DNA from: an uncultured Planctomycetota bacterium
GTDB taxonomy: Bacteria > Planctomycetota > UBA11346
Assembly: GCA_903902515.1 (NCBI GenBank)
Contig: CAIUVD010000326.1
Location: forward strand, 2,350 to 66,349
Direction: 5' to 3'
DNA: 64,000 nt
In this document: piece by piece, positions 53,859 through 64,000 of the stretch
How positions within the stretch are numbered: the stretch's first letter is position 1
How the letters are laid out: every line of letters begins with the position of its first letter
The notes under the pieces: generated by a model
What the model saw: only the letters and a program-made list of their open reading frames with translations
Databases searched by the model: none
What the model was told of the DNA's origin: nothing
Program-made: the position numbers and the translations under genes

Positions 53859-54179
53859 ATGTCATCCGCACCACGCACGACCGCCCTGACCATCCGCCAA
53901 CTGCCGCTCGCCACCGTCCGCAGCCTCAGGTCCCGGGCCAAGGAACACCACCGCAGCCTGGAAACCGAGATCCGCGACATCCTGATCCGCGAAGCCGCCC
54001 AGCCGAGCATGCCGGAATGGCGGGCCCAGGCAGAGCGCCTGCGCCAGGAGGTCACACCCTGGCAACCGGGCATGCTGACCGCCGTCGATCTGGTGGGCGA
54101 AGGCCGAGACGAGGATCGCCGAATGGAGTTCAATGGAGCCGCAGGAATGAACCTGCGGAAACCAATGCCGTTGAAATAA
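53859..54179 (+). CDS. orphan VapB/FitA-like ribbon-helix-helix antitoxin (no PIN toxin follows)
   Basis: LTIRQLPLATVRSLRSRAKEHHRSLETEIRDILIREAA matches FitA-type RHH antitoxins; ORF runs ~25 aa past typical length; no PIN ORF downstream. Confidence 0.55.
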   Translation: MSSAPRTTALTIRQLPLATVRSLRSRAKEHHRSLETEIRDILIREAAQPSMPEWRAQAERLRQEVTPWQPGMLTAVDLVGEGRDEDRRMEFNGAAGMNLRKPMPLK

Positions 54180-54542
54180 GCCACCTCCCGCTGCCTTTTC
54201 CTGGCTTTCCCCACGTCATCCCCAGATGCGCCAGCGTCCATGCATGCTCCTGCATAGGCAAAGACACTCGTGAGGTCGACAGATCCGCCCCCAGCGGCGG
54301 GCGAGGGCGAGCATTCGACGATGGAGAATGTCGAGCAGGCATCTGGGGACCTTTGTGCCCCGGCTGGTTGCCAGGAGTTCAGACAGACGGTCGCCGAGGG
54401 CTGCCCGGTTATGTCGTCGTGTTCGCGGATCGTCTGGGTAGGGTCTTTGGTCCTTCGGTAGGAGGTCGATGGCGACCTCCTCGGTGAGGCTCTCCAGCAG
54501 GAACATCAGCATGAGGGTGTCGATCTCCTCCTAAATACGTTG

Positions 54543-54743
54543 TGGCGTAGTGCCGTCGAAATCCTCGCACTCGCAGCGGATCTTGAGATCGCGAAAAGCA
54601 TTCTCGATGCCCCAGTGGCGGCGATAGACGGCGAACAGGTCGTCCGGGGTGACGTGTTCACGGTCCATGAGGTTGGTCACGAGAACCCGATCGGTCCCAT
54701 TGTGGTCGCGGCGGCGGACGAGGCCCAGCCCTCAACGGTATCC
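54543..54743 (-). pseudogene. IS4-family DDE transposase remnant (C-terminal ~66 aa only)
   Basis: Hand translation of minus strand: ...VLVTNLMDREHVTPDDLFAVYRRHWGIENAFRDLKIRCE... (Y-R-E-K C-terminal signature); stop immediately upstream, no N-terminal part. Confidence 0.6.
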
Positions 54744-54833
54744 GCATAAGCTAATAGCATAGTTTACTGACTGCCTTTTCAGGCCCTTGCCAGGAGACTT
54801 CGCATCGGAGCATGCTGCGATGGGAATCGTACG

Positions 54834-57461
54834 ATGACAAAGAATCCCAGGTCGATCGGCGCCCGTCTAGAGACGCCCTGGGGTAAATTGCAGCGACAGG
54901 ACCCCCAGGATCGCACCAGCCCAGTCATGGCCTGGCACCCCCTGCAGGATCATTGCGCCGATGTCGCAGCGTGCCTGGTGGCCCTCCTCGGAAGCGCCGC
55001 ACAGCCGACCGCCATGCGCCAGCGTCTTGCCGCCCTCGGGCACCAAGACCACCTCGACGACCAGCAAGTTGCGCGTCTTGGGGTGCTAGCGTTCCTGCAC
55101 GACATCGGCAAGGCGAATCGCGGATTCCAGGCCAAAGCCTTCGTCGAGGCCTCCCGGGATGCCGGCCATATTGCCGAAGTCATGGTCCTGCTGTGTCGTG
55201 GGGACCCACCCCTAATGAACGCCCTGGACTTCCCTTCAGACTGGTCAAAGGGAGACGGCACGATGGAACTGCTGGCGGCCGCCATCAGCCACCATGGCCG
55301 GCCAGCGGACCAGCCGCAGACCTTGCCCCACCCGGACACGGTGGCCCGCTGGTGGGCCCCGGGGTCCGACGGCGACCCGATGGCCACCATTCAGTCCCTG
55401 GTTGCCGCCACCCGGCGCTGGTTGCCCCAGGCTTGGGAATCCGGTGGCCGACCGCTGCCCACTACGCCGGGCTTTCAGCATGGTTTCTGCGGGCTCGTGC
55501 AACTCGCCGATTGGCTAGGGTCAGACACCGATTTCTTCCCCTACAGCCAGCCCGGCGAAGACCGCTGGCCCCGAGCCGTCGAAGCGGCGACTGCCGCCAT
55601 GGCCGCCACCGGTCTGGTAGCCACCGCCGCCCACGCGGCCCTGGCCGTGGATCCCCCCTTTTCCGCCATCAGCGATTTCCGCCCGCATCCCCTCCAAGCG
55701 GCCGTCGGTCGCCTGATACCAGCGGCGGGCCCCTCCTTGACCTTGATCGAAGAGGAGACCGGCGGCGGCAAAACCGAGGCGGCCCTCTGGCATTTCGCCC
55801 GGCTGTTCGCCGCTGGCCTGGTCGATGGGCTCTATTTCGCCCTACCAACCCGCACCGCTGCCACCCAAGTCCATCGCCGGGTCACCGAGGCCATCGCCCG
55901 CAGCTTTCCTACCAGCCCGCCAACCGTCATCCTGGCCGTCCCGGGCTACCTCCGCGTCGATGGGGCCGAAGGTCGGCCCCTGCCGGCGTTCGAGGTCTTG
56001 TGGAATGACGACCCGACCAAGGTTGACCGCCACCGCCGCTGGGCAGCGGAACACCCCAAACGGTTCCTCGCCGGAACCGTCGTCGTTGGCACCATTGATC
56101 AGGCGCTGTTGGCGGCTTTGGCCGTCGATCACGCCCACCTCCGTTCCGCCTGCCTGCTCCGGCACCTGCTGGTCGTCGATGAGGTCCACGCTTCGGACGC
56201 CTACATGAACCGCCTGCTGACGGCGCTCCTAGAACGCACCCGGGCCGCCGGGGGGCATGCGCTGCTGATGTCCGCCACCCTTGGGTCCGTGGCCCGCAAT
56301 GCCTTCCTCGGCTCCTGGGGCCACCCCACCACGACCAGCCCCGCCGAGGCCCAGGCCATCCCCTACCCCACCCTGTGGGCGGTCGGCGCTCCACCCCAGG
56401 TGGTGGAGCGTACCGGCCGGGACCGGCGGGTGACCCTGACCACGCTGGAGGCCGATGATCCGGCCGTCATCGCCCGTCGGGCCCAGGCAGCCGCCCAGGC
56501 CGGTGCCCGGGTACTGATCATCCGCAACACCCGGGCGGATTGCCTCGCCACCCAGGCCGCCCTGGAATCCACCGTGGCGCCGGACCTCTTGTGGCGGGTG
56601 GCTAGCCCAACCGGTCTCCTGCCCGTGCCCCATCACGCCCGCTATGCCCGCGAAGACCGAACCTACCTCGATGCCGGGATCGAAGCCGCCTTCGGCAAGC
56701 ACGCCGAGCGTCACGGCGGCCTGATCGCCTGCGCCACCCAGACCATCCAACAGGCCCTCGACCTGGATGCCGACCTCCTCATCACGGACTTGGCCCCGGT
56801 CGATGTGCTCCTGCAACGCCTCGGCCGCCTGCACCGCCATGCCCGGCCCCGGCCCACCGGCTTTACCGACGCCCAAGCCGTGATCCTCAGTCCCCCCGAT
56901 TCCCTGGCCACCTGGCTGGGTAACCCCCGCCGGGGGCCCCATGGCTGGGGCACCGTGTACCAGGACCTACGGATCCTGGAGGCCACCCGCCGGCTGGTGG
57001 CGGAAGGCACCTGGGCGATCCCCCAGGACAATCGCCGGTTGGTGGAACAGGCCACCCATCCCGATCTCCTGGCGGTACTCACCATCGATGATCCTCGCTG
57101 GGCTACCCACGGTTACGACCAACAAGGCCGCCTCTATGCCCTGAAGGATCGCGCCCGCCTGGGCCTGCTGCCCTGGCATCGTACCTTTGGCGAGCCGGAA
57201 GTCCTTTTCCCTCGTGAAGCGATGGATGGGGAACTGAAGACCCGGTTGGGGGAAAATGATCGGCGCATCGTCCTTCCCACGCCCTGGTCATCCGCCCTGG
57301 GGCAGACCATCCGCGAACTGACCGTGCCGGGCTGGTGGTGCGCTGACCTGCCCCCAGACGCCCCCGTTCGCGTTACACGCAACGAAAGTTGCGCGCAGAT
57401 CCAATTTGGGCCCCTACGCTTTTCCTATGACCGCCTTGGCCTACGCCGTGAGGAGACCTGA
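54834..57461 (+). CDS. cas3: CRISPR-associated helicase/nuclease Cas3 (type I-E; HD + SF2 helicase)
   Basis: HD motifs (HPLQDHCADVAA, LAFLHDIGKANRGFQ), Walker A EEETGGGKTEAAL, DExH LVVDEVHASD. Confidence 0.95.
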   Translation: MTKNPRSIGARLETPWGKLQRQDPQDRTSPVMAWHPLQDHCADVAACLVALLGSAAQPTAMRQRLAALGHQDHLDDQQVARLGVLAFLHDIGKANRGFQAKAFVEASRDAGHIAEVMVLLCRGDPPLMNALDFPSDWSKGDGTMELLAAAISHHGRPADQPQTLPHPDTVARWWAPGSDGDPMATIQSLVAATRRWLPQAWESGGRPLPTTPGFQHGFCGLVQLADWLGSDTDFFPYSQPGEDRWPRAVEAATAAMAATGLVATAAHAALAVDPPFSAISDFRPHPLQAAVGRLIPAAGPSLTLIEEETGGGKTEAALWHFARLFAAGLVDGLYFALPTRTAATQVHRRVTEAIARSFPTSPPTVILAVPGYLRVDGAEGRPLPAFEVLWNDDPTKVDRHRRWAAEHPKRFLAGTVVVGTIDQALLAALAVDHAHLRSACLLRHLLVVDEVHASDAYMNRLLTALLERTRAAGGHALLMSATLGSVARNAFLGSWGHPTTTSPAEAQAIPYPTLWAVGAPPQVVERTGRDRRVTLTTLEADDPAVIARRAQAAAQAGARVLIIRNTRADCLATQAALESTVAPDLLWRVASPTGLLPVPHHARYAREDRTYLDAGIEAAFGKHAERHGGLIACATQTIQQALDLDADLLITDLAPVDVLLQRLGRLHRHARPRPTGFTDAQAVILSPPDSLATWLGNPRRGPHGWGTVYQDLRILEATRRLVAEGTWAIPQDNRRLVEQATHPDLLAVLTIDDPRWATHGYDQQGRLYALKDRARLGLLPWHRTFGEPEVLFPREAMDGELKTRLGENDRRIVLPTPWSSALGQTIRELTVPGWWCADLPPDAPVRVTRNESCAQIQFGPLRFSYDRLGLRREET

Positions 57462-58996
57462 TGCCACCCCCTGACCTTCCCCCGGGCAACCTGCTCACCG
57501 AATCCCTGTTCGGGGTCGTGGACCTCCATGGAAACCGACACCATCTGACGCTCCCCGGCGTGCTTGCCCGTTTGGCCGACCCGGCCGCGACCACCATCGG
57601 CTTCACCGCTCTGCAGGCCCATCAATCCCATGCCTGGCATGCCTTCCTGGTGCAATTGGCGGCCATGGTCCTGCACCGGGCAGGGGTGACGGACCCACCC
57701 ACGGACGCCGCGTGGTGGGGTGACCGATTGCGTGAACTCGGAAGTGGCGAGGAGGCCTGGACCCTGGTGGTGGAGGACCTGTCGAAACCCGCGTTCATGC
57801 AGCCGCCGGTGCCAGAATTAAACTTGCAAGGCTTCAATGTCGCCGACTCATTTTCATCGGAATGTGACCTTCCCCAGACCGCTCGAAATCACGATTACAA
57901 AGTCAAAAATAACCCGGGCGATGCTGCCCATTGGATCTACGGACTGATATCGGTTCAAACCTGTCAGAACTATTCTGGGGCCACTAAATACGGAATTATT
58001 CGCATGAACGGTGGAACCGGCAGTCGGTTAGCTACCGGCGTGACCGTGGGGCTGGATGTAGGTCATCACTTTCGGAAGGATGTTCATGCCATCCTCGAAG
58101 CTCGCCCGGACATTTACGAGGCGGCTGGATTCGCCCCTGACCATGGAATCTGTCTTCTCTGGCAAGAGTCTTGGGACGGAAAATCGGGTTTGCCCGTGTC
58201 CACCTTGGATCCATTCGTCATTGAGATTTGCCGAAGATTACGGCTTATGCCTCGTAAAAACGGCATGCTCCTCCACGCAATCGGTTCAGAAACCGAACGG
58301 ATCATCATTCCCCGAGATAAAAAACAGTGGCGCATACGAAATGCACATGGCGACCCGTGGACACCCGTTGAAAAAGCCGACAGCAAAGCCGTCTCGATGA
58401 CGGAGCGGGGATTCACATATTCTGCAACAGTTAAGATCCTTCTTTCATCGGATGTTACTCGGCCGCCATCGCGCTTCCTCGCTGCGGGGGAATCCGGTGA
58501 TGCTCGGTGGTATGGCAAGGTTTTGGTCAAAGGAGGACAAGGAAAAATCGGTGCGTGGCACGAACGAGAGGTACCGATCCCAGGACACCTACGCTCCCGC
58601 TTTGCCCGCCCCGAAGGTCGCGATGCCCTAGCTATCGTCGCCAAAGACATGATCGACCTCGCCGCCACCATGCGGCTCAAGATCCTCAAGTCGGCCCTGA
58701 CCGCCCTGTGGGAGGATGCCGAGGGCCGCATCGATCAAGCCCTCGCACGTCTGGAACAGGCCGTCGATGCCTGTTTCTTTGACCACCTGTGGGCCCATCC
58801 CGACGATCCCACCCCGTGGCGGACTGTCCTGGCAGACCTCGCCAGGCAGATCCTCGACGAGGACTGCGCTCTGGTCGGCCCAGCGGCCGATCGCTGGCAA
58901 CGCCTAAGCGCCGCCGAAAGCCGCTTCACCTGGCACCTCCATCACAACCCCAAACACGGGCCCTTCCTGCCCCGGATCACCCATGCCACCCCCTGA
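57461..58996 (+). CDS. cas8e: Cas8e / Cse1 (CasA), Cascade large subunit
   Basis: Family-typical N-terminus (NLLTESLFGVVDLHGNRHHLTLPGVLARL); position after cas3; TGATG overlap with cas3 stop. Confidence 0.9.
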   Translation: MPPPDLPPGNLLTESLFGVVDLHGNRHHLTLPGVLARLADPAATTIGFTALQAHQSHAWHAFLVQLAAMVLHRAGVTDPPTDAAWWGDRLRELGSGEEAWTLVVEDLSKPAFMQPPVPELNLQGFNVADSFSSECDLPQTARNHDYKVKNNPGDAAHWIYGLISVQTCQNYSGATKYGIIRMNGGTGSRLATGVTVGLDVGHHFRKDVHAILEARPDIYEAAGFAPDHGICLLWQESWDGKSGLPVSTLDPFVIEICRRLRLMPRKNGMLLHAIGSETERIIIPRDKKQWRIRNAHGDPWTPVEKADSKAVSMTERGFTYSATVKILLSSDVTRPPSRFLAAGESGDARWYGKVLVKGGQGKIGAWHEREVPIPGHLRSRFARPEGRDALAIVAKDMIDLAATMRLKILKSALTALWEDAEGRIDQALARLEQAVDACFFDHLWAHPDDPTPWRTVLADLARQILDEDCALVGPAADRWQRLSAAESRFTWHLHHNPKHGPFLPRITHATP

Positions 58997-59486
58997 TGTG
59001 CCTCTCATGACCGCTCCCCCGAGTCTGGCCTCCCTCATCGGCCGTTTGGCGGCCCGGGTCGGCAGCCTGGGTGCCGGGCCCCGGGCAGAACTTCGCCGCC
59101 TGCATCCGGATGCCTCGGACCGTTGGCGGGCGGAGACCTTTTACCGTCTTTACGCCGAGGTCATCGCCCCCGAGGGCGCGGGCGGGGACCTCCACGAACG
59201 CCGGTGGGCCATCCTGCTGGCGGGTCTGGCGGCCCTGGAGCATGCCCCCGGTTCCGCCCTCGGGCGAGTCCTGGCTGAATCCGGCTTTGCCCCGGCCCGG
59301 TTCACCCGGCTCCTTGATGCCGACGACGACCACCTGCCGGACCAGATACGGGCCGTGGTGTCCTACCTCGGCTCGAAGGGCCAGACCGTCAACTGGACCG
59401 ATGTTGCCCATCTGCTGCTGGATGGCGACCGCGATGCGGTTCGTCGTCGTATCGCTGCCACCTACTACCGCTTTTCCAAGGCCTAA
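58983..59486 (+). CDS. cse2: Cse2 / Cas11e (CasB), Cascade small subunit
   Basis: ~160-aa helical protein in canonical position; start may instead be M9 (59007). Confidence 0.8.
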   Translation: MPPPDVPLMTAPPSLASLIGRLAARVGSLGAGPRAELRRLHPDASDRWRAETFYRLYAEVIAPEGAGGDLHERRWAILLAGLAALEHAPGSALGRVLAESGFAPARFTRLLDADDDHLPDQIRAVVSYLGSKGQTVNWTDVAHLLLDGDRDAVRRRIAATYYRFSKA

Positions 59487-59489
59487 ACC

Positions 59490-60701
59490 ATGTCTGCCCG
59501 CTTTCTTCAGTTCCATACCCTCACCTCTTTCCCCGCCAGCCTGCTGAATCGCGACGATGCGGGTCTGGCCAAGCAGATCCCCTTCGGCGGCAGCGTCCGC
59601 ACGCGCATCAGCAGCCAGTGCCTCAAGCGCCACTGGCGGACCTTCGAGGGGGACCACGACCTCAAGACCATCGCGGGGGATATGGGCCTGTCCGTCCGAT
59701 CCCGCGAGGCTTTCCGTCGCAAGGTGGCCCAACCGCTGATCGCCGATGGCCTGGATCCGGCCAAGGTCGAGGCGGTCGTCGGGGCCTTGATGCGCCAAGC
59801 CCTGGGGGAAAGCGCCAAGAAGGCCAAGGGCCGGGCGGCCGCCGATGCCGGGGGCGAAGCGGATGCCGAAGTCCCGGCCAAGGACGCCAAAGCGAAGAAA
59901 GACGACGGCGATGCCCTCCACACGGGGCAGATCGTGGTCCTCGGAGAACGCGAACTGGCCTTCGTTCGCGCCACCGCGGCCGCCGTCATCGCCGAGATCA
60001 AAGACCTCAAAAAGGTCGATGACGCGGTGAAGGCCGCCCTCGGCAAGGAAGCCCTGGCCAACCTCAAGGCTACGACCAATGCCGGCCTCGATGCGGCCGT
60101 CTTTGGTCGGATGGTGACCAGCGACAATCTGGCCCGCTGCGATGCAGCCATCCATGTCGCCCACAGCTTCACCGTTCACGCCTCCCAGAGCGAAGCCGAC
60201 TACTTTACGGCCATGGATGACCTGACCCTGGAGGCCGGCGAAGGCGGTTCCGGCCACATTAACAGCACCGACCTGACCACTGGCTTGTTCTACGGCTATG
60301 TGGTCGTCGATGTCGACCTGCTGGTGAAGAACCTCGGTGGGGACCGGGCCCTGGCGGCCAGCGTGGTGGAATCCATCCCCCATTTGATCGCGACCGTGTC
60401 GCCCGGGGCGAAGTTGGGATCCACCGCGCCCCACAGTTTCGCCCATCTGCTGCTGGCCGAGGCCGGCAACCGCCAGCCCTGCACCCTGGCCAATGCCTTC
60501 CTGGGATCGGTACCCCTGAAGGGCAATCTCCTGGAAACGACCTATGCCCGCTTGGCCCAGGAAGCCGGGGATCTGGATGCCAACTTTGGTTCGACCCCTG
60601 CACGGACGGCCATGATCCGGGGCGCCCCGTTCCCCCTCCCCGGCCTCGCGCCGACCTCCTTGCCGACGGTGGCCGCCTGGTGTGCGGACCAGGTGCGGTG
60701 A
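59490..60701 (+). CDS. cas7e: Cas7e (CasC/Cse4), Cascade backbone
   Basis: MSARFLQFHTLTSFPASLLNRDDAG...GSVRTRISSQCLKRHWR matches Cas7e N-terminal signature. Confidence 0.95.
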   Translation: MSARFLQFHTLTSFPASLLNRDDAGLAKQIPFGGSVRTRISSQCLKRHWRTFEGDHDLKTIAGDMGLSVRSREAFRRKVAQPLIADGLDPAKVEAVVGALMRQALGESAKKAKGRAAADAGGEADAEVPAKDAKAKKDDGDALHTGQIVVLGERELAFVRATAAAVIAEIKDLKKVDDAVKAALGKEALANLKATTNAGLDAAVFGRMVTSDNLARCDAAIHVAHSFTVHASQSEADYFTAMDDLTLEAGEGGSGHINSTDLTTGLFYGYVVVDVDLLVKNLGGDRALAASVVESIPHLIATVSPGAKLGSTAPHSFAHLLLAEAGNRQPCTLANAFLGSVPLKGNLLETTYARLAQEAGDLDANFGSTPARTAMIRGAPFPLPGLAPTSLPTVAAWCADQVR

Positions 60702-61441
60702 TGCGGGTCCTCCTTCTTCGCCTGGAAGGTCCGCTGATGTCCTTCGGGGATGTCAAAGTGGATGCCCGCAACCCGACCCGGGATCATCCGGGTCTCGGCC
60801 AGATGACAGGCCTCTTGGGCAATGCCCTAGGCTATGACCATGCTGACGCTGACCGGCTGACCCGCCTCCAGGAACGCCTGCGGGTAGCCAGTCGGTGCGA
60901 GGTCGCCGGCACCCCCCTGCGGGATTATCAAACGGTCGACCTCGGTCAGCCGTTCATGCAGGAAGGCTGGACGACCCGCGGCCAGGTTGAAGGTCGCAAA
61001 GGTGGCACCGCCAGTGATGGCACCCACATTCGTCAACGACACTACCACGCCGACCGCCTACAGATGGTCGCCGTGACCCTGACCCCCAGCGACGAATTTC
61101 CGACCATCGATGAGGTGGCGGCGGCCCTTGATGCCCCGGCCCGGCCTCTGTTCCTGGGCCGTAAGGCGTGCCTGCCTTCAGGGCGGCTCAATGCCGGCCT
61201 CATTGAGGCACCCACGCTGCACGCAGCCCTGGAACAAGCGCCCCGGGATCGCCGGGCGGCTACCACATTCCTCTCGGCGTGGTGGCCCGAGGACCCCGCG
61301 ACCACGCCGCCTGCCGATAGCCGGGTGGTCGCCGTGGTGGACGAGCGGGATTGGCGGGGCCAAGTGGTGGTGGGCCGGCGTCTGGTGCGTCAGGGCCGGG
61401 TGAATCCGCCCCTGGCATCGGCGGAGGTGGCCCATGTCTGA
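60701..61441 (+). CDS. cas5e: Cas5e (CasD)
   Basis: MRVLLLRLEGPLMSFGD signature start; ATGA overlap with cas7e stop. Confidence 0.9.
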   Translation: MRVLLLRLEGPLMSFGDVKVDARNPTRDHPGLGQMTGLLGNALGYDHADADRLTRLQERLRVASRCEVAGTPLRDYQTVDLGQPFMQEGWTTRGQVEGRKGGTASDGTHIRQRHYHADRLQMVAVTLTPSDEFPTIDEVAAALDAPARPLFLGRKACLPSGRLNAGLIEAPTLHAALEQAPRDRRAATTFLSAWWPEDPATTPPADSRVVAVVDERDWRGQVVVGRRLVRQGRVNPPLASAEVAHV

Positions 61442-62240
61442 TCTCCACCTCCTTCGGTTGGCCATCGACCCGGCGGGCCTCGCTCGTCTGGCCCGGCACC
61501 TGCACATTGCGGACGAGGACGACGCTGGCTATCGCCTGCATGCCCTGTTAGCCGGACTGTTCGGGGACGCCGCCCCCGCGCCCTGGCAGCGGGACGACCG
61601 CACCCCCACACGCCACCTGGTGCTGTGGGCGTATAGTTCCCTGACCTGGGATGCGCTCGCAACCCTGGCCCACGACCGCTTCACCGCACCGGATGCCGTG
61701 GGGTTAGACGCGGACCTCATCAGCCTGCTGCGAGGCGCCCTGGCCTGGGAAGCCTGCGCCAGCAAACCGGTCGTGCCCCTGGCCCAGGGGCGGACCATCG
61801 CCTTTGACCTGCGGGCCTGCGCCGTGGTTCGCCTGCACCGGGACCTGCCGGGGATTCCGGCAACGGGGGATCATGGGGCGATTGCCGCCCGCAAGGCGGG
61901 GAATGAGGTCGATGTGCTCATCGCGGAGGCTCTCCGCCAGCAGGTGCATCCGTCAGCCCTGCCCACTGAAACCATTTACCAAACTTGGCTTGCCTCAGCC
62001 CTGGGCCGGACGAATGGCAGCACGGTGGAACACCTGCAACTCACCGGGCAACGCACCATCAGCGGCCTTCGCCGCCACCAGGCCGGCGGACGGCGGCCGA
62101 TTCACCTGCCCGAGGTCCGCGCCACCGGAACGCTGACCATCACCGATCCCGTCGCCTGGGCCGCGACCCTAGCCCGGGGCATTGGCCGCCATCGTGCCTT
62201 CGGCTTCGGGATGTTGCTCCTGAGACCAGTGGCGGGATAA
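61434..62240 (+). CDS. cas6e: Cas6e (CasE/Cse3) crRNA endoribonuclease
   Basis: Overall Cas6e similarity incl. C-terminal Gly-rich loop (GIGRHRAFGFGMLLL). Confidence 0.85.
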   Translation: MSDLHLLRLAIDPAGLARLARHLHIADEDDAGYRLHALLAGLFGDAAPAPWQRDDRTPTRHLVLWAYSSLTWDALATLAHDRFTAPDAVGLDADLISLLRGALAWEACASKPVVPLAQGRTIAFDLRACAVVRLHRDLPGIPATGDHGAIAARKAGNEVDVLIAEALRQQVHPSALPTETIYQTWLASALGRTNGSTVEHLQLTGQRTISGLRRHQAGGRRPIHLPEVRATGTLTITDPVAWAATLARGIGRHRAFGFGMLLLRPVAG

Positions 62241-62247
62241 TCCGGCC

Positions 62248-62568
62248 ATGACCATCGACGACCTCCCCTTCGATCGCAAGGCCCTCGCCAACTTGTGCCG
62301 CCAGCGCGGGATCCTGCGGCTCGAAGTCTTTGGGAGTTTCGCTCGGGGAACTGCCGGACCGACCAGCGATGTCGACGTGCTGGTGACCTTCGATCCTGCG
62401 GTATCCCTGGGCTGGACCTATTGGGGCATCCCGGATGAGTTGTCCGCCGTGTTCGGCCGCCCCGTCGACATGCTGACCCGTGCCGTGGTCGAGACCGATC
62501 ACAACGCCGGATTCCGCGCCAGCGTCCTGGCGACCACCGAGGACCTCTACCATGCTGCTGCCGCCTGA
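62248..62568 (+). CDS. mntA: MntA-type minimal nucleotidyltransferase (antitoxin of HepT/MntA TA pair)
   Basis: GSFARGTAGPTSDVDVLV (GSx9-13DxD) motif; 106 aa. Confidence 0.85.
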   Translation: MTIDDLPFDRKALANLCRQRGILRLEVFGSFARGTAGPTSDVDVLVTFDPAVSLGWTYWGIPDELSAVFGRPVDMLTRAVVETDHNAGFRASVLATTEDLYHAAAA

Positions 62569-62905
62569 CCGGCACCGACTGGTCGATATGCGGCACTATG
62601 CCGCCAAAGCCCTGGCCTTCACGGACGGACTGACGGAAGTGGCTTTTCTAGCGGATGAACTGCGGTTATTTGCGACCATCCGCTGTATCGAGGTAATCGG
62701 CGAAGCCGCCTCGAAGGTCAGCAAAGAGACCCGGGAACAGCACCCCGAACTCCCGTGGGTTTTCATGGCCCCCATGCGCCACATCTGCATCCATGAGTAC
62801 GGGCGCGTCGATCCGCTGCGCATTTGGCAGACCGTCCGGTTCTCTTTGCCAGATTTGGTGGCCCACCTTGACCGCATCCTGGCCGAACCGGATTCCAGGC
62901 CCTGA
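62552..62905 (+). CDS. hepT: HepT-type (DUF86/HEPN) toxin
   Basis: Rx4HxY HEPN motif RHICIHEY; start MLLPPDRH overlaps mntA by 17 nt; stop overlaps cas1 ATG (TGATG). Confidence 0.8.
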   Translation: MLLPPDRHRLVDMRHYAAKALAFTDGLTEVAFLADELRLFATIRCIEVIGEAASKVSKETREQHPELPWVFMAPMRHICIHEYGRVDPLRIWQTVRFSLPDLVAHLDRILAEPDSRP

Positions 62906-63777
62906 TGCTGCGCGGGCGCCTGGGTCTGGAGACCGCCCGGGTTCCCCACGGGGACCGTCACGGTCTGTTGTGGCTGTCGTTCGGGAATCTGACGGTTGAT
63001 GACGGCTGCCTGCGCTTCACCGCCGCCGGGGGCCATGACCTGGCCGCCGGGGATTATCAGATACCCCATCAAACCCTCTCACTGATCTTGCTGGGACCGG
63101 GAACCACCATCAGTCAGGATGCCCTGCGCCTCTGTGCCCGGCATGGTACCGGGGTGGTCGCGGTGGGTGACGGCGGCGTTCGGATGTATTCAGCCCCACC
63201 CCTGGGACCCGACCAATCCCAAGCCGCTCGGGCCCAGGTCCGACTGTGGAGCGACCTGAACGGCGGACGGATGCTGGTGGCCCGCAACATGTACGCCCTG
63301 CGTTTTGGGGAGATGCTGCCCGCCACCGACATTGAAGCCCTGCGCGGCATCGAAGGCGGACGGGTGAAGGAATCCTACCGCCGGATCGCCCAGCAGTTTG
63401 GCATCCCTTGGCAAGGCCGCCGCTACGACCGCAACGATCCTGAGGGGGCCGACGCCCCCAACCAGGCCATCAACCATGCCGCCACCGCCGTCGAGGCCGC
63501 CGCCATGATTGCCGTCGCCGCCACGGGAACGATCCCCGCCCTCGGCTTCATCCACGAAGATTCCGGCATGAGTTGGATCCTCGACATCGCGGATCTTGCC
63601 CGAGCCGACACCACCATCCCGGTGGCCTTCGCCGCCGTCAAAGCCGCCAGTGCCGACCCCAGCGTCCCCCTCGAACGCCATGTCCGGCGCTGCGCCAACG
63701 CCGCCTTCCGCAAACAGGCCCTGATCCCCCGGTTCATCGACAACATCCACCACCTCCTCGACCTTCCGACCACCTGA
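62905..63777 (+). CDS. cas1: Cas1e integrase
   Basis: Cas1e family similarity along the full length (GFIHEDSGMSWILDIADL...). Confidence 0.95.
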   Translation: MLRGRLGLETARVPHGDRHGLLWLSFGNLTVDDGCLRFTAAGGHDLAAGDYQIPHQTLSLILLGPGTTISQDALRLCARHGTGVVAVGDGGVRMYSAPPLGPDQSQAARAQVRLWSDLNGGRMLVARNMYALRFGEMLPATDIEALRGIEGGRVKESYRRIAQQFGIPWQGRRYDRNDPEGADAPNQAINHAATAVEAAAMIAVAATGTIPALGFIHEDSGMSWILDIADLARADTTIPVAFAAVKAASADPSVPLERHVRRCANAAFRKQALIPRFIDNIHHLLDLPTT

Positions 63778-63778
63778 C

Positions 63779-64000
63779 ATGGTGGTCATCGTCACCCGCG
63801 ATGCCGCCGACCGGACCCGCGGCTTCCTCGCCAGTTGCCTGCTGGAAATCGCCCCCGGCGTCTACGTGGGCCCCCGCATGAACCCCGCTGTCCGGGAACG
63901 GGTCTGGGCCGTCCTCTGTGAATGGCAGCCCCTGACCGGCGGCTCCGTGGTCATGACCTGGAACGATCACCGGGCCATTGGTGGTCTTGGCCTCGCCGTC
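63779..64000 (+). CDS. cas2: Cas2e (5' part; runs off window end)
   Basis: ATG at 63779 one nt after cas1 stop; MVVIVTRDAADRTRGFLASCLLEIAPGVYVG matches the Cas2e N-terminus. Confidence 0.85.
   Translation, partial: MVVIVTRDAADRTRGFLASCLLEIAPGVYVGPRMNPAVRERVWAVLCEWQPLTGGSVVMTWNDHRAIGGLGLAV

What the first reader, a model, noticed from the sequence alone, without database searches (positions are those of the whole stretch)
62248..62905. HepT/MntA toxin-antitoxin pair translationally embedded inside the type I-E cas operon
The operon order is cas3-cas8e-cse2-cas7e-cas5e-cas6e, then mntA-hepT, then cas1-cas2. mntA starts 7 nt after the cas6e stop. hepT overlaps mntA by 17 nt and its stop overlaps the cas1 start codon (TGATG). 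The pair is therefore obligately co-transcribed and probably translationally coupled with the adaptation genes, not merely nearby. Both partners keep their catalytic motifs: GSx..DxD in MntA and Rx4HxY in HepT. This suggests an addiction or safeguard module for the CRISPR locus, comparable to CreTA, or a toxin that gates Cas1-Cas2 expression or abortive infection. A protein TA pair at this interference/adaptation junction of a type I-E operon is not a described standard architecture.
Basis: partly seen in the sequence, partly recalled or inferred. Interest (0 to 1): 0.8.

Follow-up and report, generated by a model that had tools for sequence, protein, structure and literature searches.

The report
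Toxin-antitoxin slot inside CRISPR operon
An intact MntA/HepT toxin-antitoxin pair is wedged, with no promoter of its own, between the interference and adaptation genes of a type I-E CRISPR operon. Relatives of this operon carry other, unrelated toxin-antitoxin pairs or their decayed remains at the same spot, so this junction is a recurrently refilled slot rather than a one-off insertion.

Summary
The order is cas3-cas8e-cse2-cas7e-cas5e-cas6e, mntA (62248-62568), hepT (62552-62905), cas1-cas2. There is a 7-nt gap, a 17-nt overlap and a TGATG stop/start overlap. The GSx10DxD and Rx4HxY motifs are intact, and a CRISPR array follows cas2 in an identical contig.

The pair is a real, selected TA module: dN/dS is 0.12 and 0.19 against a relative with the same arrangement, and the predicted fold matches solved HepT toxins.

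Comparison changes the picture. Outside a small clade (Cas1 at least 70% identical), 0 of 81 related I-E lineages have anything at this junction. Inside the clade, 5 of 12 carry an intact TA pair there: two unrelated MntA-HepT pairs, DUF433-DUF5615, and an orf77-PIN pair. One more lineage has DUF433-DUF5615 between cas8e and cse2, and one holds a deletion remnant. The window's pair is closer to a free-standing TA pair than to the other cas-embedded MntA-HepT pair, so acquisitions were independent. Cas1 and Cas7 identities disagree, marking the junction as a module-exchange boundary.

Best reading: mobile, promoter-less TA cassettes captured at a permissive recombination junction, persisting by addiction and incidentally stabilising the cas locus. 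A dedicated CreTA-like guard or abortive-infection role is not excluded. New variant of a known association; moderate interest.

The parts
54834..57461 (+). cas3 (875 aa), first gene of the type I-E operon
   Evidence: PF18019 Cas3_HD 4.7e-29 and PF22590 4.4e-22. ORF.
57461..58996 (+). cas8e/cse1 (511 aa)
   Evidence: Assigned by synteny. Weak TIGR02547 casA_cse1 hit, 37.8 bits, below the cut-off of 70. No Pfam hit.
58983..59486 (+). cse2/cas11e (167 aa)
   Evidence: PF09485 1.1e-13.
59490..60701 (+). cas7e (403 aa)
   Evidence: PF09344 7.8e-92.
60701..61441 (+). cas5e (246 aa from ATG 60701)
   Evidence: PF09704 6.9e-32. The start is as called on the identical contigs.
61434..62240 (+). cas6e (268 aa), last gene of the interference module
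   Evidence: PF08798 2e-26. The conserved C-terminus ...AFGFGMLLLRPVAG* aligns with relatives.
62241..62247 (+). 7-nt spacer between the cas6e stop and the mntA start; upstream boundary of the cassette
   Evidence: Sequence read. Nucleotide homology to the free-standing L148 pair begins 1 nt before the mntA ATG.
62248..62568 (+). mntA, minimal nucleotidyltransferase antitoxin (106 aa); GSx10DxD motif at 62332-62376
   Evidence: PF01909 1.2e-15. NF047752 MntA 8.4e-10, below its cut-off. Matches the Thermus MNT 1wot. dN/dS 0.12 against L147. G29, S30, D41, D43 and D74 are invariant.
62552..62905 (+). hepT, HEPN/DUF86 RNase toxin (117 aa); Rx4HxY motif at 62777-62800; GAGGA Shine-Dalgarno at 62539-62543 inside mntA
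   Evidence: PF01934 1.1e-21. AF2 model with pLDDT 90.6. The top 23 PDB fold matches are all solved HepT/HEPN toxins, TM 0.6-0.69. R76, H81 and Y83 are invariant. dN/dS 0.19.
62552..62568 (+). 17-nt mntA/hepT overlap (ATGCTGCTGCCGCCTGA)
   Evidence: The same overlap is present in L147 and in the free-standing L148 pair, and it is 20 nt in L156, so it is a feature of the TA family.
62903..62907 (+). TGATG: the hepT stop overlaps the cas1 start; no Shine-Dalgarno upstream
   Evidence: Conserved in L147. The no-insert relative L067 has GGAGG before cas1, whereas the window has CCAGGCCCTG.
62905..63777 (+). cas1e (290 aa), first gene of the adaptation module
   Evidence: TIGR03638 cas1_ECOLI 1.9e-88, 296 bits against a cut-off of 215.6.
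63779..64000 (+). cas2e, cut by the window end (110 aa in identical contigs); a CRISPR array follows in L001
   Evidence: TIGR01873 8.4e-20. Six or more repeats with a 61-nt period at L001 5832-6183.

Best explanation
The window holds a bona fide, active-looking type VII-like MntA/HepT toxin-antitoxin cassette. It consists of the two ORFs only, with no promoter. It has been captured at the boundary between the interference module (cas3-cas6e) and the adaptation module (cas1-cas2) of a complete type I-E CRISPR-Cas operon.

How it works:
- Shown: the genes are packed so tightly (7-nt gap, 17-nt overlap, TGATG) that they can only be expressed from the cas operon mRNA.
- Shown: hepT has its own GAGGA Shine-Dalgarno inside mntA, and cas1 has none.
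- Inferred: cas1 is translated by termination-reinitiation from hepT.
- Inferred from the family: MntA AMPylates Tyr83 next to the Rx4H RNase site of HepT and keeps it inactive.

In evolutionary terms, this junction is a recurrent TA slot in one I-E clade. At least four unrelated or independently acquired RNase TA pairs occupy it in sister lineages, and they turn over by gain and deletion. The junction is also where interference and adaptation modules have been exchanged.

The most likely biology is that these are mobile, selfish addiction cassettes that land and persist at the one operon junction that tolerates them. By inference, a side-effect is that they make deletion or transcriptional silencing of the cas locus costly. 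They are not a mechanistic part of CRISPR immunity.
For: Anatomy and domains.

Intactness and selection:
- Invariant catalytic residues.
- dN/dS of 0.12 for mntA and 0.19 for hepT, at the same dS (about 0.35) as cas1 (0.05), against L147, which keeps the arrangement.
- The HepT fold matches 5yep, 6m6u, 7ae8 and 8xdj.

Mobility:
- The closest non-identical relative of the pair (L148, 85% and 74% aa identity) is free-standing, with no cas genes beside it.
- Nucleotide homology starts 1 nt before the mntA ATG.
- The HepT family occurs on 1457 plasmid records.

Recurrent slot:
- L156 carries MntA-HepT that is only 44% and 38% identical to the window pair.
- L006, L069, L153 and L154 carry DUF433-DUF5615.
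- L159 carries orf77-PIN.
- L155 carries DUF433-DUF5615 between cas8e and cse2.
- All are on the same strand, with gaps or overlaps between -20 and +23 nt.

Dispensability and turnover:
- L157 carries an in-frame deletion remnant that fuses antitoxin residues 1-27 to PIN residues 104-135.
- L067, L150 and L152 have no insert.

Clade specificity:
- 5 of 12 lineages in the clade against 0 of 81 outside; Fisher p = 1.5e-5.
- No insert larger than 150 nt at any other junction from cas8e to cas2 outside the clade.

Module exchange: window Cas1 is 82% identical to L155 but Cas7 only 49%; Cas1 is 70-76% identical to L159 and L006 but Cas7 is 71-72%.

Precedent: vapBC pairs interspersed in Sulfolobales cas cassettes were proposed to maintain CRISPR-Cas (PMC4390879).
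Against: - At least four independent captures at exactly the same junction, all RNase toxins and all promoter-less, could equally reflect positive selection for a function linked to CRISPR-Cas.
- The toxin gene is under purifying selection, which pure hitch-hiking does not require.
- For a type VII system the antitoxin acts by covalent modification. Whether post-segregational killing (PSK), the classical addiction mechanism, works at all here is unknown.
- Nothing here measures transcription, toxicity, AMPylation or locus stability.
- Internal promoters inside cas6e cannot be excluded. The sigma-70 scan is uninformative for this lineage; the closest genome relative is a Planctomycetota MAG.
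- Sampling of the clade is small (12 lineages), and most are metagenomic contigs.
Confidence: 0.55

Rival explanations
1. Transcription-coupled guard, a protein analogue of CreTA. Because the cassette has no promoter and lies downstream of cas3-cas6e, any deletion, promoter loss, silencing or polar insertion (IS or nonsense) in the interference module stops fresh antitoxin supply. The remaining or newly unmodified toxin then arrests the cell. Selection for this safeguard would explain why different TA families were recruited repeatedly to the same place.
For: - Promoter-less, ORF-precise cassettes in all six TA-bearing lineages.
- Repeated independent recruitment and clade enrichment.
- Purifying selection on the toxin.
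- CreTA shows that cas loci do evolve addiction guards (PMC9458426; PMC8730458).
- IS insertions into cas genes are a known, real threat (PMC10359306).
Against: - Cassettes are lost or decay without apparent loss of the cas operon (L157 remnant; L067, L150 and L152 empty).
- In L155 the pair sits after cas8e, so it would guard only cas3-cas8e.
- The kinetics needed are untested for MntA/HepT: a labile antitoxin or a reversible AMPylation.
- TA-bearing loci L153 and L155 may themselves carry frameshifted cas genes.
Confidence: 0.2
2. Abortive-infection or dormancy back-up for CRISPR immunity. HepT (elsewhere the PIN toxins) is released when phage shuts off host transcription or drains ATP. It cleaves tRNA or mRNA and buys time for interference and primed adaptation, as in the immunity-dormancy coupling hypothesis.
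For: - All toxins in the slot are RNases.
- The characterised cyanobacterial HEPN-MNT lies beside a type I-D locus, trims tRNA 3' ends, and was proposed to sense ATP depletion (PMC11676413).
- The coupling hypothesis predicts toxins in cas loci (PMC3632139).
- MntA matches the PADLOC defence-candidate family PDC-S09 at 1e-23.
Against: - No conservation of any one toxin family with the Cas proteins.
- Turnover and decay of the cassettes.
- The closest empty relatives (L067, L150, L152) show no remnant at the junction.
- HepT, the DUF5615 proteins and the PIN protein have no PADLOC hit.
- No trigger or sensor component is evident.
Confidence: 0.15
3. Expression gate for the adaptation module. 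The inserted ORFs mainly set the translation level of Cas1-Cas2 through stop/start coupling, and the toxin-antitoxin activity is secondary.
For: - cas1 lacks a Shine-Dalgarno sequence and overlaps the hepT stop. The no-insert relative L067 has GGAGG before cas1.
- Deletion remnants keep the 5' and 3' ends of the cassette and the stop-3nt-start geometry (L157).
- A GGCTGA(N)CC-ATG motif recurs before cas1.
Against: - Coupling to cas6e directly, as in L067, L150 and L152, achieves the same result without a toxin.
- No unusual RNA structure at the junction (z = -0.55).
- It does not explain why the inserts are always TA pairs, nor the purifying selection on catalytic residues.
Confidence: 0.1

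Closest known systems
Type VII MntA/HepT (HEPN-MNT) toxin-antitoxin systems: Shewanella oneidensis SO_3165/SO_3166, Aphanizomenon flos-aquae HEPN-MNT, Legionella pneumophila HEPN-MNT
   Same: - Two small genes, with the antitoxin first and overlapping the toxin.
- An MNT protein with GSx10DxD.
- A DUF86/HEPN protein with Rx4HxY, including the tyrosine that is AMPylated.
- The predicted HepT fold matches their crystal structures (PMC7641770, PMC11586414, PMC13000451).
- The cyanobacterial example also lies next to a CRISPR-Cas locus, type I-D (PMC11676413).
   Different: - Sequence identity to the solved proteins is only 11-18%.
- Scores fall below the NCBIfam equivalog cut-offs.
- The pair has no promoter region of its own and sits inside the cas operon, translationally abutting cas6e and cas1.
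- Toxicity and AMPylation are untested.
vapBC toxin-antitoxin pairs interspersed in cas gene cassettes of Sulfolobales (Garrett, Shah and co-workers)
   Same: Protein TA pairs with RNase toxins lie within or between cas modules and were proposed to help maintain CRISPR-Cas. The cas modules themselves are exchangeable units (PMC4390879, PMC3973734). Here too the slot coincides with a module-exchange boundary.
   Different: - Bacterial type I-E rather than archaeal type I-A or III.
- One precise junction is used repeatedly.
- Cassettes are promoter-less and coupled to the neighbouring cas ORFs.
- Three TA families are involved, including MntA/HepT.
CreTA (CRISPR-regulated toxin-antitoxin RNA pairs)
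   Same: An addiction element lodged inside a type I cas locus that could penalise loss of the locus.
   Different: CreTA consists of small RNAs. The antitoxin is a crRNA-like RNA with a degenerate repeat, and it needs Cascade to repress the toxin. Here both partners are proteins, no repeat-like sequence exists in the window, and nothing ties neutralisation to Cascade.
PIN-COG2442 (DUF433) VapBC-type pairs, e.g. Synechocystis vapBC10
   Same: This is the family of the pair that fills the same slot in sister loci L006 and L153, and the cas8e/cse2 junction in L155 (PMC3834315).
   Different: It is not the family present in the window. It is relevant only as evidence that the slot accepts any TA.

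Membership tests
Type VII MntA/HepT toxin-antitoxin | Toxin is a HEPN/DUF86 protein with the Rx4HxY RNase motif, including the modifiable tyrosine | tested here: met
   PF01934 1.1e-21. R76, H81 and Y83 are present and invariant in 22 homologues and in all population variants.
Type VII MntA/HepT toxin-antitoxin | Antitoxin is a minimal nucleotidyltransferase with GSx10DxD | tested here: met
   PF01909 1.2e-15. G29-S30-x10-D41-x-D43 read in the sequence. Invariant across relatives.
Type VII MntA/HepT toxin-antitoxin | Adjacent two-gene module with the antitoxin upstream and overlapping the toxin | tested here: met
   17-nt overlap. The same overlap is in the free-standing relative L148 and in L147; it is 20 nt in L156.
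Type VII MntA/HepT toxin-antitoxin | HepT adopts the HEPN helical fold of solved HepT toxins | tested here: met
   AF2 pLDDT 90.6, pTM 0.85. The top 23 Foldseek PDB hits are all HepT/HEPN toxins, TM 0.53-0.69, probability 0.97-1.00, although E-values are only about 0.02.
Type VII MntA/HepT toxin-antitoxin | Scores above the curated NCBIfam equivalog cut-offs (NF047752 MntA, NF047751 HepT) | tested here: not met
   38.5 and 21.5 bits against a cut-off of 60. The pair belongs to the wider Pfam families, not to the curated equivalogs.
Type VII MntA/HepT toxin-antitoxin | HepT is toxic, and MntA neutralises it by (oligo)AMPylation of the tyrosine | not testable with these tools
   Needs expression, growth assays and mass spectrometry.
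Type I-E CRISPR-Cas | cas3, cas8e, cse2, cas7e, cas5e, cas6e, cas1e, cas2e in one operon, plus an array of about 29-nt repeats | tested here: met
   An array with a 61-nt period lies directly after cas2 in the identical contig L001. The array lies beyond the window end.
CreTA | RNA toxin plus a crRNA-like antitoxin carrying a degenerate CRISPR repeat | tested here: not met
   No match to the repeat core with up to 3 mismatches anywhere in the 64-kb window. The junction is fully occupied by two protein-coding genes under purifying selection.
CreTA | Toxin repression depends on Cascade | not testable with these tools
   Needs genetics.
Transposon- or integron-borne cassette | Flanking target-site duplication, terminal inverted repeats or attC-like site | tested here: not met
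   No direct or inverted repeats bound 62241-62904. No transposase or integrase lies within the operon.

The most novel reading that the evidence does not exclude
In this I-E clade (its closest genome relative is a Planctomycetota MAG), the interference/adaptation boundary has become a dedicated, promoter-less toxin-antitoxin slot. RNase TA pairs of at least three unrelated families were recruited independently because they confer a benefit tied to the cas operon. That benefit would be either a transcription-coupled safeguard, in which loss, silencing or polar disruption of the operon stops antitoxin supply and arrests the cell (a protein analogue of CreTA), or an abortive-infection back-up fired when phage shuts down host expression. 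In either case toxin translation also sets Cas1-Cas2 output.
Probability: 0.2. Interest if true: 0.8.

Novelty: new variant of a known kind. Interest (0 to 1): 0.55.

Why it matters
CRISPR-Cas loci are costly and frequently lost or inactivated, and how they are retained is an open question. CreTA showed one answer, using RNA.

Here a compact, sequence-defined system offers a second, directly testable case. Ordinary protein TA pairs, stripped of their promoters, are hard-wired into the cas mRNA exactly where the interference and adaptation modules are joined and exchanged. Natural replicates exist, with three TA families, empty sites and a deletion remnant.

If selection rather than mere tolerance explains the recurrence, it would link TA addiction, module shuffling and control of Cas1-Cas2 expression in bacteria. 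It would also extend to type I-E an idea so far raised only for archaeal cas cassettes. If not, it is still a clean example of where selfish TA cassettes can lodge inside an essential-order operon.

Tried and rejected
- **Promoter and terminator scan of 54000-64000.** It found one promoter-like site on the wrong strand and no plus-strand terminator in the cassette, no more than in shuffles. It is uninformative for a non-sigma-70-consensus lineage, so it is used only as absence of contrary evidence.
- **RNA folding of both cassette boundaries.** z = -0.55 for each, so there is no special structure. The idea of a start-codon-sequestering hairpin was dropped.
- **Flanking repeats.** None bound the cassette, so a transposon or integron origin is not supported.
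- **CRISPR-repeat-like sequence in the window.** None found, so this is not CreTA-like.
- **GC profile.** The cassette is 61-66% GC against 65-72% for most cas genes, but cas8e dips to 52%. The profile is not diagnostic of recent transfer.
- **PDB sequence searches.** HepT alone gave no hit. A profile gave one weak hit to 7ae9. Fold search replaced them.
- **Possible TA relics in short gaps.** The L068 131-nt gap encodes a HepT-like C-terminal peptide, but support is weak: HMM E 0.19, no Pfam hit, and nucleotide similarity not above shuffles. The gaps in L158 (87 nt) and L155 (47 nt) gave nothing significant. These are reported as unresolved and are not counted as remnants.
- **Viral contig scan with Cas1.** No relatives found.
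- **Literature searches.** I looked for a described TA at the I-E cas6e/cas1 junction and found none. Only the related precedents cited in this report turned up.
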